Virus record (IMG/VR): IMGVR_UViG_2721755497_000002
Coordinates: 1-46,410 of that record
Source: a virus
Taxonomy: Duplodnaviria > Heunggongvirae > Uroviricota > Caudoviricetes
Length of the DNA stretch: 46,410 bases
Direction: 5' to 3' (one strand)
The position numbers and the translations under genes are program-made. Positions 43,640-44,097 of this stretch are shown one piece after another. The stretch's first letter is position 1. The number at the start of each line of letters is the position of its first letter. The notes below the pieces were generated by a model. It searched no databases and was not told the DNA's origin. It saw only the letters and a program-made list of their open reading frames with translations.

Positions 43640-43815
43640 ACATGATGACTGGAATTGCCGGAAGGATATAAAACCGTACAGTATGCGCGGGTGCCTTTGG
43701 CTGATGGCCGGATGTGAAAAGGCCCCGAGTCAACTTCAATGTTAACCCGAGGCCCTGATCCGTCTACCTTAAGCAAGTGACAGGTTAGCGCCTCTCCGTA
43801 AAAGGAGCAAGTGCT

Positions 43816-43956
43816 GTGTCGCAAAAACCGTTAAAAACCACCGTGATTTGTATCACGATAGTGCTCATTATCTGGATCACCCACAGTTCACTGTGTGAAT
43901 TCCGGTTCCGGATAGCTGGCGCGGAGATTGCGGCGTTCTTACAGTGTAAACAGTAA
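43816..43956 (+). CDS. Second Hok-family type I toxin candidate (46 aa, GTG start)
   Basis: VSQKPLKTTVICITIVLIIWITHSSLCEFRFRIAGAEIAAFLQCKQ: TM helix followed by the Hok signature LCE-x-R-x-R...G..E-[IV]-A-[AV]-F; AAGGAG 8 nt upstream; not in ORF track. Confidence 0.45.
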   Translation: MSQKPLKTTVICITIVLIIWITHSSLCEFRFRIAGAEIAAFLQCKQ

Positions 43957-44051
43957 GAAACCGTGGCGGGGGACTCAGTCCCCCGCTGACCGGTTGCTGA
44001 AGGTGGTCAGCCGGATGGCACCTTTTTAATCCTGTAAACCACGATTTTTAC

Positions 44052-44088
44052 CGCAGGCCGGGAAACCGGCACTGCGGTTTTTTTATGG
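44052..44088 (+). terminator. Rho-independent terminator (CCGCAG...CTGCGG + T7) before the side tail fibre gene
   Basis: Hairpin with T-tract; a second hairpin GGCGGGGGACtcaGTCCCCCGC lies upstream at about 43965. Confidence 0.5.
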
Positions 44089-44097
44089 GGAAAATCC

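What the first reader, a model, noticed from the sequence alone, without database searches (positions are those of the whole stretch)
43640..44097. Second Hok-family toxin candidate in the lom position downstream of J
A 46-aa ORF not in the ORF track, with a GTG start and AAGGAG Shine-Dalgarno, encodes a TM helix followed by SLCEFRFRIAGAEIAAF. This matches the Hok/Gef signature also seen in the first hok at 14089..14244. It is flanked by stacked hairpins and two terminators. A prophage with two hok loci, this one in the slot lambda uses for lom, is unusual.
Basis: partly seen in the sequence, partly recalled or inferred. Interest (0 to 1): 0.5.

Follow-up and report, generated by a model that had tools for sequence, protein, structure and literature searches.

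The report
Second hok/sok toxin locus, already catalogued
The gap between the tail genes J and stf of this E. coli prophage holds a real small membrane-toxin gene with an antisense-RNA antidote (hok/sok type), but it is already annotated in RefSeq, belongs to a common, catalogued subgroup, and is ordinary.

Summary
The ORF at 43816..43956 (+) has a GTG start and an AAGGAG Shine-Dalgarno 8 nt upstream. It encodes a 46-aa Hok/Gef protein (Pfam 43.5 bits, cut-off 22).

It sits in a complete hok-type mRNA:
- its own promoter;
- a 5' end that pairs with a 3' fold-back element;
- a predicted ~60-nt antisense Sok RNA;
- a conserved stem-loop after the stop codon;
- a terminator just before the tail-fibre gene.

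The fold is conserved, with compensatory changes, across 13 loci from four genera.

It is not new. The window is the E. coli M3/M1 prophage, and RefSeq annotates this exact ORF as "Hok/Gef family protein". The same J-hok-stf layout occurs in 121 of 5,426 complete E. coli genomes, and relatives occur in about 1,750. A 2026 Hok census lists the subgroup among its tested clones, including a variant two residues away.

Phage 933W and its relatives carry the same pair of loci: hokW, plus an unannotated 46-aa hok beside lom. Two hok loci per phage are uncommon (3.5% of Hok-bearing phages) but documented.

This copy has three oddities:
- no mok frame reaching the hok Shine-Dalgarno;
- a 20-nt leader deletion;
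- a GTG start.

Whether it is still active is untested.

The parts
43655..43682 (+). Predicted hok promoter: -35 TTGCCG (43655-60), 16-nt spacer, -10 TACAGT (43677-82)
   Evidence: Read from the sequence. Both hexamer positions are kept in 15 aligned loci, as TTGCC./TTG.. and TA.A.T. It falls below the 9-of-12 threshold of the consensus scan. Inferred, not shown.
43689..43704 (+). 5' end of the hok mRNA (tac-like element), GGGTGCCTTTGGCTGA
   Evidence: GGGTGCC is invariant in 13 sequences and pairs with the 3' GGCACC.. In the window's own minimum-energy fold, 16 nt pair with 44007-44023.
43706..43712 (+). Junction of a 20-nt deletion (GGGAACACCTGAAGGCCGGA lost between two GGCCGGA repeats). It removes the apical hairpin of the tac stem.
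   Evidence: Absent from the window and present in all 14 other aligned loci. The deletion is shared only by M3, M1 and A39 among 5,426 genomes. The Rfam sok score is 27.6 bits here against 61.6 in the closest relative.
43716..43776 (-). Predicted Sok antisense RNA, about 60 nt: a 5' tail complementary to 43756-43776, then hairpin 43755->43721, then UUUU
   Evidence: The minus strand folds at -27.7 kcal/mol (z -5.1). The plus strand folds at -12.9 (z -1.7). The same strand asymmetry holds in all 15 loci. The ends are inferred.
43782..43810 (-). Predicted Sok promoter on the minus strand: -35 TTGCTC (43810->43805), 17-nt spacer, -10 TAACCT (43787->43782)
   Evidence: AGGTTA is invariant in 15 loci. 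The same hexamer with the same 17-nt spacing is the sokW -10 that was mutated in the promoter-less construct of PMC8621323 (primer YO-421). It is weak against the sigma-70 consensus.
43767..43779 (+). Sok-target segment. In the full-length mRNA it pairs with 3'-UTR bases 43990-44003.
   Evidence: Helix 5 of the consensus fold has 10 pairs, 4 of them with compensatory changes.
43794..43807 (+). Anti-SD/SD hairpin: CUCC (43794-97) pairs with GGAG (43804-07). The hok Shine-Dalgarno AAGGAG lies at 43802-07.
   Evidence: Helix 8 of the consensus fold, 90% of cells paired.
43816..43956 (+). hok coding sequence, 46 aa, GTG start
   Evidence: Pfam HOK_GEF 43.5 bits; PHROG 251, 75.7 bits. RefSeq WP_073520592.1 has identical coordinates. 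dN/dS against 8 relatives is 0.07-0.51.
43965..43987 (+). Conserved stem-loop just after the stop codon, inside the mRNA
   Evidence: Helix 14: 9 pairs, 100% paired, 4 compensatory. Energy -20.8 kcal/mol, z -3.4.
43990..44003 (+). 3'-UTR arm that masks the Sok-target segment in the full-length mRNA
   Evidence: Helix 5.
44007..44023 (+). Fold-back inhibitory (fbi-like) element, TCAGCCGGATGGCACCT, which pairs with the mRNA 5' end
   Evidence: Helix 1 is 97.8% paired across 13 sequences. It is a 16-bp closing helix in the window's fold.
44050..44085 (+). Intrinsic terminator of the hok transcript, 12 nt before the stf start codon
   Evidence: -24.5 kcal/mol, z -5.8, followed by TTTTTTT. Conserved in the J-hok-stf relatives only.

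Best explanation
The J-stf gap holds a self-contained hok/sok-type type I toxin-antitoxin cassette, a phage 'moron' with its own promoter and terminator.

Proposed mechanism:
1. A roughly 400-nt hok mRNA starts near 43689 and ends near 44085. It encodes a 46-aa inner-membrane toxin.
2. As first made, the mRNA is inert. Its 5' end pairs with a fold-back element at 44007-44023. The Sok-target segment (43767-79) is masked by 3'-UTR bases 43990-44003. The Shine-Dalgarno sits in a small anti-SD hairpin.
3. Slow 3' trimming would remove the fold-back element. The 5' end would then refold onto AAAGGCCCC (43718-26) and the target would be exposed.
4. A short-lived antisense Sok RNA of about 60 nt (43776->43716, minus strand) then pairs with the leader. 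This silences or destroys the mRNA.
5. If Sok synthesis stops, Hok is made and the cell is killed or lysed.

Shown here: the Hok protein family, the conserved mRNA fold, the strand-specific antisense hairpin, and synteny.

Inferred by analogy with plasmid R1 hok/sok and 933W hokW/sokW: the transcript ends, 3' processing, Sok action, toxicity of this exact allele, and the biological role. Possible roles are prophage retention, help with lysis on induction, or exclusion of other phages.
For: Protein:
- Pfam HOK_GEF 43.5 bits against a cut-off of 22; PHROG 251, 75.7 bits.
- Six of the seven residues conserved in over 80% of Hok peptides are present in register: C12, T14, L26, C27, E28, E37. The seventh, M1, corresponds to the GTG start. 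The second Cys, C44, is also present. The motif is taken from 10.1101/2025.08.07.668861; the sequence is.
- dN/dS is 0.07-0.51.
- A variant two residues away (79_1563) and the 933W-type peptide (72_1589) are listed as cloned constructs in that census. The census found 42 of 45 tested homologs toxic and names three others as the non-toxic ones.

RNA:
- The consensus fold of 13 loci from Escherichia, Salmonella, Serratia and Yersinia has 87 pairs, with 95.6% of cells paired.
- 19 pairs carry double changes, against 11.2 +/- 1.9 in shuffles (1 of 500 reach it) and 11 or fewer in slid controls.
- The full-length window RNA folds at -145 kcal/mol, z -6.05, closed by a 16-bp 5'-3' helix.
- The antisense hairpin is 5-18 kcal/mol more stable on the minus strand in all 15 loci.
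- The Sok -10 hexamer TAACCT is invariant. It equals the sokW -10 that was mutated experimentally.
- The Rfam sok model hits the leader at E 3.5e-4. It hits the relatives at 35.6-61.6 bits.

Context:
- RefSeq annotates the same ORF.
- The J-hok-stf order recurs in 121 genomes.
Against: - No mok frame: the only leader ORF (ATG 43739, 13 codons) stops 22 nt before the hok Shine-Dalgarno. In plasmid R1, mok translation up to the hok SD is mandatory (PMC9841398).
- The window copy scores only 27.6 bits on Rfam sok (gathering score 59), because of a 20-nt leader deletion.
- It has a GTG start where most relatives have ATG.
- One mismatch in the target-masking helix results from a mosaic Sok segment.
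- Both predicted promoters are weak and were not found by the consensus scan.
- The NCBIfam Hok models score below their cut-offs.
- A sister copy with the same deletion is split by an insertion sequence in strain A39. A truncated copy exists elsewhere in M1/M3.
- No expression data are available.
Confidence: 0.8

Rival explanations
1. It is a decaying, translationally silent hok remnant. The protein frame is still open, but the regulatory leader is damaged by a 20-nt deletion, a lost mok and a GTG start. No Hok is made, and the locus persists only as neutral cargo and as a terminator before stf.
For: - The deletion is confined to M3, M1 and A39. It costs about 34 bits of Rfam score relative to the closest relative.
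- The A39 copy is additionally split by an insertion sequence and has an altered C-terminus.
- A 27-aa fragment copy exists in M1/M3.
- The leader ORF stops before the hok SD, whereas R1 needs mok translation up to the SD.
- The neighbouring tail-fibre gene is frameshifted, so the prophage may be defective.
Against: - The ORF is intact and differs from the widespread WP_000078852-type peptide by one residue besides the start codon.
- Both promoters' hexamers, the SD, the 5'-3' closure and the tac stem base are retained. The deletion removes only an apical hairpin.
- mok is also absent from most other members of this abundant subfamily, which is under purifying selection. Its absence is therefore not specific to this copy.
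Confidence: 0.2
2. The cassette is active, but its main job is in the phage's lytic cycle rather than addiction. It lies co-oriented inside the late (tail) operon. Antiterminated late transcription would therefore read through it. That read-through would collide with the convergent Sok promoter and produce hok RNA lacking the native inhibitory 5' end. Hok would then be made late and help to lyse the cell, as reported for hokW.
For: - The locus is co-oriented with J and stf here, with lom and downstream genes in 933W, and with ogr in P2-like prophages.
- For hokW-sokW, induction removes sokW RNA, HokW is made about 1 h before endolysin, and deletion halves phage release (PMC8621323).
Against: - hokW is a different Hok cluster in a different position and orientation in 933W.
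- No expression data exist for the 46-aa type.
- In Salmonella loci L014 and L020 the neighbours are not co-oriented phage late genes.
- This is inference only.
Confidence: 0.25
3. The ORF is a chance reading frame in a structured intergenic spacer whose only role is to terminate transcription between J and stf.
For: The ORF is short and has a GTG start. The consensus scan found no promoter.
Against: - Pfam E-value is 2.3e-11.
- The peptide is conserved, with synonymous change, across four genera.
- The start position is conserved, as ATG or GTG.
- Near-identical peptides are listed among the census's cloned constructs, of which all but three named others were toxic.
Confidence: 0.01

Closest known systems
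Cluster 79 (and sister cluster 72) of the 2026 Hok census, 10.1101/2025.08.07.668861. In RefSeq: WP_000078852 / WP_000078855 / WP_073520592, 'Hok/Gef family protein'.
   Same: The same 46-aa protein type, ending ...AEIAAFLQCKQ/R. The same leader, 3' UTR and fold. The census's cloned construct 79_1563 differs from the window peptide at two residues (V15I, and terminal R in place of Q). The J-hok-stf synteny is the same in 121 E. coli genomes.
   Different: The window allele has GTG instead of ATG (shared with strain PG20180057) and a 20-nt deletion of the apical tac-stem hairpin. Its Sok hairpin allele resembles the 933W/Serratia type rather than that of its nearest relatives.
The unannotated 46-aa hok immediately downstream of lom in phage 933W / Sakai prophage Sp5 (AF125520 45660-45800)
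   Same: The same subfamily: 61.7% protein identity and about 78% DNA identity over 320 nt. The mRNA architecture is the same. It lies in the lom region of a lambdoid phage that also carries hokW.
   Different: It sits beside lom rather than replacing it, in a short-tailed Stx phage. It is a different Sok-target sequence.
hok/sok of plasmid R1 (Rfam RF01794; tac/fbi/ucb/dcb model)
   Same: - A small transmembrane toxin with the SLCE motif.
- A cis-antisense RNA whose promoter overlaps the hok SD region.
- 5'-3' fold-back closure, and a tac stem after truncation.
- A stem-loop after the stop codon.
- A transcript of about 400 nt.
   Different: - 46 aa against 52 aa, and only 39% identity over 33 residues.
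- No conserved mok, and no AUG at the R1 mok position.
- The Rfam score is below gathering in this copy.
- It is prophage-borne, not plasmid-borne.
hokW/sokW of 933W/Sp5 (HokD cluster), the type of the window's first hok at 13919-14244
   Same: A prophage-borne type I toxin-antitoxin system, proven experimentally. It has the identical Sok -10 hexamer TAACCT with a 17-nt spacer.
   Different: A different Hok cluster: 51 aa, and 40.6% identity over 32 residues. blastn finds no leader DNA similarity. It has an annotated mokW. Cross-talk between the two Sok RNAs is therefore unlikely.
lom of phage lambda (a moron between J and stf)
   Same: The same genomic slot, J - X - tail fibre. Like the cassette here, it is accessory cargo rather than a structural tail gene.
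   Different: It is an unrelated product, an Ail/Lom outer-membrane beta-barrel. No antisense RNA is involved.

Membership tests
Hok/Gef toxin protein family (Pfam PF01848) | Profile match above the curated threshold | tested here: met
   43.5 bits against a gathering score of 22, E 2.3e-11, covering profile positions 8-42 of 42. PHROG 251 scores 75.7 bits.
Hok/Gef toxin protein family (Pfam PF01848) | About 50 aa, with one N-terminal transmembrane helix and a polar C-terminal tail | tested here: met
   46 aa. The 15-residue hydropathy maximum is 2.53, at residues 8-22. The tail SSLCEFRFRIAGAEIAAFLQCKQ is polar.
Hok/Gef toxin protein family (Pfam PF01848) | Conserved residues M1, C16, T18, L30, C31, E32, E41 (census logo), plus the second Cys at position 48 | tested here: met
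   C12-x-T14, L26-C27-E28, E37 (C+10) and C44 (C+17) are all present with the same spacing. M1 corresponds to the GTG start. Sequence; logo from 10.1101/2025.08.07.668861.
Hok/Gef toxin protein family (Pfam PF01848) | NCBIfam Hok-family (NF007279) or HokA (NF007290) model above its cut-off | tested here: not met
   38.2 bits against 73, and 38.9 against 89. The window's first hok also fails these cut-offs (45.1 against 73). The models are narrow, and the RefSeq product name here is only the generic 'Hok/Gef family protein'.
Hok/Gef toxin protein family (Pfam PF01848) | Kills or arrests cells when expressed | not testable with these tools
   The census lists clones of 79_1563 (two residues different), 72_1589 and 72_1621 among its constructs. 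Only 19_179, 60_1482 and 69_1540 are named as non-toxic. This exact allele has not been tested.
[quoted passage not shown] | Rfam RF01794 (hok leader / sok) at the gathering score | tested here: not met
   The window scores 27.6 bits against 59, E 3.5e-4 in a 701-nt search. The closest relative, L004, scores 61.6 (met). Seven others score 35.6-51.9. The shortfall tracks the 20-nt deletion.
[quoted passage not shown] | A cis-encoded antisense RNA over the leader, with its own promoter and terminator hairpin | tested here: inconclusive
   The hairpin is strand-specific: -27.7 kcal/mol on the minus strand against -12.9 on the plus strand, and the same direction in all 15 loci. The -10 TAACCT is invariant and matches the experimentally mutated sokW -10. 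No transcript data exist, and the promoter is weak against the consensus.
[quoted passage not shown] | Long-range 5'-3' (tac-fbi) pairing that closes the full-length mRNA | tested here: met
   7 pairs, 97.8% paired in 13 sequences. They are mostly invariant, so there is no covariation support for this helix itself. It is a 16-bp helix in the window's minimum-energy and centroid folds, z -6.05. Adjacent long-range helix 5 has 4 compensatory pairs.
[quoted passage not shown] | Refolding to a tac stem once the 3' end is removed | tested here: met
   With the 3' arm removed, both the window fold and the 13-sequence consensus pair GGG.U.GCCUU with AAGGC.CCC. This is prediction only.
[quoted passage not shown] | An overlapping mok reading frame whose translation reaches the hok SD | tested here: not met
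   The window's leader ORF (ATG 43739) has 13 codons and stops at 43778-80. No ATG/GTG/TTG frame crosses the SD. The feature is present in only 2 of 13 relatives, and the start codon is not conserved.
[quoted passage not shown] | 3' exonucleolytic processing, and RNase III cleavage of the Sok-hok duplex | not testable with these tools
   Requires RNA work.
Phage moron (autonomous cassette between late genes) | Its own promoter and terminator, inserted between two conserved late genes, and dispensable in relatives | tested here: met
   The cassette fills the J-stf gap exactly. Lambda has lom in the same slot. The terminator lies at 44050-85. GC content is 0.515, against 0.558 for J and 0.571 for stf. 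The promoter is inferred.

The most novel reading that the evidence does not exclude
The 46-aa Hok subgroup (census clusters 72 and 79) may be a mok-independent variant of hok/sok that has specialised as cargo of phage late operons. It is found after J in lambdoid siphoviruses, after lom in 933W-like phages, and after ogr in P2-like prophages. On this reading Hok translation is controlled directly by the anti-SD hairpin and the Sok-masked leader. Late read-through transcription would switch it on as a lysis or exclusion accessory. The window's allele, lacking the apical tac-stem hairpin, would be a natural test of how much of the leader is needed.
Probability: 0.15. Interest if true: 0.45.

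Novelty: already known. Interest (0 to 1): 0.15.

Why it matters
It matters little as a discovery. The gene is already annotated in RefSeq, its subgroup is catalogued, and a variant two residues away is among the census's tested clones. The two-hok arrangement is that of the textbook Stx2 phage 933W.

The useful residue is practical:
- Annotators should expect a 46-aa hok in the lom region of lambdoid prophages. It is still unannotated in the 933W and Sakai reference records.
- This subgroup lacks a conserved mok, so the R1 rule that hok translation needs mok may not be general.
- The M1/M3 allele carries a clean natural deletion of a leader hairpin that could be used to probe hok mRNA folding.

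Tried and rejected
- The simple promoter/terminator scan found nothing in 43500-44200. The calls made here rest on homology and folding instead.
- The Rfam gathering-threshold scan of the whole window found sok only at the first locus. The second appeared only with the E-value threshold.
- blastn between the two hok loci of the window found no meaningful similarity. I therefore dropped the idea that the second is a recent duplicate of the first.
- I first assumed that the lom-adjacent 933W hit was hokW. The paper's primer sequence and the 933W annotation showed that hokW is the other locus, at 58460-58734, and is the type of the window's first hok.
- I searched for a mok frame in three frames of nine loci and found none conserved.
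- PADLOC has no Hok model, so the zero hits say nothing about a defence role.
- A full-text search for the peptide motif found no paper. The census supplement did contain it.
- I did not run structure prediction, the large protein-representative search, or the metagenome and genome-collection scans. The identity was settled without them.

Full report
**What is in the sequence.**

The stretch 43640-44097 is exactly the gap between the tail-tip gene J (40163-43639) and a tail-fibre gene that starts at 44098. AAGGAG lies at 43802-43807, 8 nt upstream.

Pfam's HOK_GEF model scores it at 43.5 bits (cut-off 22, E 2.3e-11). The first hok, at 14089..14244, scores 78.6 bits. PHROG 251, 'MokW-like host killing', scores 75.7 bits. 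Hydropathy peaks over residues 8-22.

A recent census found seven residues conserved in more than 80% of 1,264 Hok peptides: M1, C16, T18, L30, C31, E32 and E41. Six of them are present here with the same spacing, and M1 corresponds to the GTG start. The second cysteine is present too.

**Where the window comes from and what is already on record.**

The stretch is 100% identical to the chromosomes of the mouse isolates E. coli M3 and M1. RefSeq already annotates this exact ORF as WP_073520592.1, 'Hok/Gef family protein', between gpJ and a frameshifted tail-fibre pseudogene.

The same J-hok-stf arrangement covers at least 80% of the query in 121 of 5,426 complete E. coli genomes. It also occurs in phage 1720a-02. 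At lower stringency, 1,750 genomes hold a relative, with up to 9 places per genome.

Other 46-aa members sit:
- immediately downstream of lom in 933W, Sakai Sp5 and Stx2 phage 86-like prophages;
- after ogr in P2-like prophages of E. coli and Serratia;
- in Salmonella and Yersinia.

The protein search returned only proteins that sources call Hok/Gef.

**Is a prophage with two hok loci unusual?**

Phage 933W carries the annotated hokW/mokW/sokW at 58460-58734. It also carries an unannotated 46-aa hok at 45660-45800, right after lom. The primer used to clone hokW starts ATGAAGCAGCAAAAGGCGATG. This shows that HokW is the type of the window's first hok (MKQQKAM...), not the second.

Eight phage records appear in both of my hit lists: 933W, two VT2-Sakai records, Stx2 phage I, Stx1 phage, Stx2 II, HUN/2013 and PA4. 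The census reports that 96.3% of Hok-bearing phages have one hok, 3.5% have two, and 0.2% have three.

Two loci per phage are therefore a minority condition, but documented, and typical of the best-known Stx2 phages. Lambda itself has J-lom-stf, so the 'lom slot' reading is right.

**The RNA anatomy.**

I aligned 15 loci of this subgroup and folded 13 non-redundant ones from the presumed +1 to the fold-back element. The consensus has 87 pairs, with 95.6% of cells paired. Nineteen pairs have changes on both sides, against 11.2 +/- 1.9 in column shuffles (1 of 500 reach it) and at most 11 when partners are slid.

The helices are those expected of a hok mRNA:
- A 5'-3' closure: GGGUGCC at 43689-95 pairs with GGCACCU at 44017-23. 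In the window's own fold this extends to 16 bp, 43689-43704 with 44007-44023. The full RNA folds at -145 kcal/mol, z -6.05. This helix is nearly invariant, so covariation neither supports nor contradicts it.
- A long-range helix between the Sok-target segment (43767-79) and the 3' UTR (43990-44003), with four compensatory pairs.
- A CUCC/GGAG hairpin over the hok Shine-Dalgarno.
- Pairing of the start-codon region with the codons for EIAAF.
- A stem-loop after the stop codon (43965-87), with four compensatory pairs.

When the 3' arm is removed, both the window and the consensus refold. The 5' end then pairs with AAGGCCCC (43719-26), giving the tac stem of the R1 model.

The true terminator is 44050-44085: -24.5 kcal/mol, z -5.8, with seven T's, 12 nt before the stf start codon.

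**The antisense RNA.**

The hairpin at 43721-43755 folds at -27.7 kcal/mol (z -5.1) when read on the minus strand. On the plus strand it reaches only -12.9 (z -1.7), because three G·U pairs become C·A mismatches. The same asymmetry, 5-18 kcal/mol, holds in all 15 loci.

On the minus strand the hairpin is followed by UUUU. It is preceded by a tail of about 20 nt. That tail is complementary to the most variable part of the leader.

Upstream on the minus strand lie TTGCTC, a 17-nt spacer and TAACCT (43810->43782). The plus-strand complement AGGTTA is invariant in the 15 loci. In the hokW-sokW study, the promoter-less sokW mutant was made with a primer that changes exactly this hexamer, which there too lies 17 nt from a TTGCCT -35.

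Both this promoter and the hok promoter (TTGCCG, 16 nt, TACAGT, 43655-82) are weak against the sigma-70 consensus. The consensus scan did not report them. They remain inferences from homology and conservation.

**Departures from the R1 paradigm and from its own relatives.**

1. No mok. In plasmid R1, mok translation up to the hok SD is mandatory (PMC9841398). Here there is no AUG at the R1 mok position. The only leader ORF starts at an ATG in the hairpin loop (43739) and ends after 13 codons, 22 nt before the SD.
   - The same ATG gives a 52-codon frame overlapping hok in strain PG20180057, and a frame ending exactly at the SD in 2012EL-2448.
   - It gives 10 codons in three other strains.
   - It is not a start codon at all in 933W or Serratia L016 (ACG). 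It is TTG in ES4 and CTG in Yersinia.
   - The subgroup is abundant and its peptide is under purifying selection (dN/dS 0.07-0.51). I therefore think mok-independent control is more likely than mass inactivation, but this is unresolved.

2. A 20-nt deletion between two GGCCGGA repeats removes the apical hairpin of the tac stem. It is shared only by M3, M1 and the rodent isolate A39.
   - The Rfam sok score is 27.6 bits in this copy. It is 61.6 in the closest relative and 35.6-51.9 in seven others.
   - The base of the tac stem, the local UUUGGC/GCCGGA hairpin and the 5'-3' closure survive. That local hairpin is the likely counterpart of R1's metastable hairpin.

3. The start codon is GTG, where most relatives have ATG.

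4. The Sok hairpin allele matches the 933W/JE86/Serratia type rather than the nearest J-hok-stf relatives. This leaves one mismatch in the target-masking helix.

5. In A39 the sister copy is split by an insertion sequence and has lost its C-terminus. M1/M3 also hold a 27-aa fragment elsewhere.

**Most likely mechanism and role.**

The locus is a hok/sok-type type I toxin-antitoxin moron. The steps shown here are the protein family, the conserved fold, the strand-specific antisense hairpin and the synteny.

The steps inferred from R1 and hokW are the transcript ends, 3' trimming, Sok-triggered silencing or RNase III cleavage, and killing when Sok decays.

A variant two residues away (79_1563) and two peptides of the 933W/P2 type (72_1589, 72_1621) are listed among the census's cloned constructs. 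The census found 42 of 45 tested homologs toxic and names three other sequences as the non-toxic ones.

The role could be prophage retention, help with lysis on induction (as shown for hokW), or exclusion of other phages. The cassette is co-oriented with the late operon in three phage types, which makes the lysis-helper idea attractive. That idea is speculation.

**Verdict.**

- Novelty: already known.
- I put 0.8 on 'hok/sok-type cassette as described'. Within that, I put roughly 0.6 on this particular allele still being functional.

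Noticed in passing
window 13919-14244: The first hok locus is of the hokW/HokD type. Its peptide differs by one residue from K-12 HokD as listed in the census table. The Rfam sok model scores it at 111.5 bits. Its DNA is 93% identical to the annotated hokW/mokW/sokW of 933W.
   Followed up: partly
L011 (933W, AF125520) 45660-45800; L010 (Sakai Sp5) about 1620-1760: The reference records of phage 933W and of Sakai prophage Sp5 carry an unannotated 46-aa Hok gene immediately downstream of lom. Newer RefSeq annotations of other strains do call it.
   Followed up: yes
window 43706-43712; L022 (E. coli A39): A 20-nt leader deletion between GGCCGGA repeats is shared by M3, M1 and the rodent isolate A39. 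In A39 the same locus is additionally split by an insertion-sequence fragment, and its Hok has an altered C-terminus (...RFRIAPF).
   Followed up: partly
window 43739-43780: A short leader ORF (MLTRGPDPSTLSK) starts at an ATG in the loop of the Sok-terminator hairpin. Its length varies from 10 to 52 codons among relatives, and its start codon is not conserved. There is therefore no conserved mok in this Hok subgroup.
   Followed up: partly
window 43716-43790: The Sok/target segment is mosaic. Its hairpin allele is that of the 933W/JE86/Serratia loci, while the ORF and 3' UTR follow the J-hok-stf relatives. This suggests recombination among hok loci, or diversifying change of antitoxin specificity.
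   Followed up: no
window 44098-45505: The tail-fibre gene after hok is frameshifted: overlapping ORFs 44098-44688 and 44444-45505, called a pseudogene in RefSeq. It contains collagen-like repeats and a gp53-like C-terminal domain. The prophage may be defective.
   Followed up: no
window 5407-5458 (-); 19274-19478 and 19529-19737 (+): A DicF sRNA gene (76.7 bits) and two tandem copies of the sRNA STnc100 (118.9 and 98.5 bits) lie elsewhere in the prophage.
   Followed up: no
window 892-981 and 1034-2059 (-); 18244-18403: tRNA-Ser(CGA) lies next to a phage integrase ORF at the left end and is a likely attachment site. tRNA-Met and tRNA-Arg genes lie in the late-regulatory region, as in Stx phages.
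   Followed up: no
window 19914-21857: A 647-aa ORF has DUF1737, a sialate O-acetylesterase-like (SASA) domain and DUF6645.
   Followed up: no
E. coli M1/M3 chromosome, outside the window: A second, truncated copy of the 46-aa hok type (27 aa, MICITVVLIIWITHSSLCEFRFRIAPF) exists elsewhere in the same genomes.
   Followed up: no
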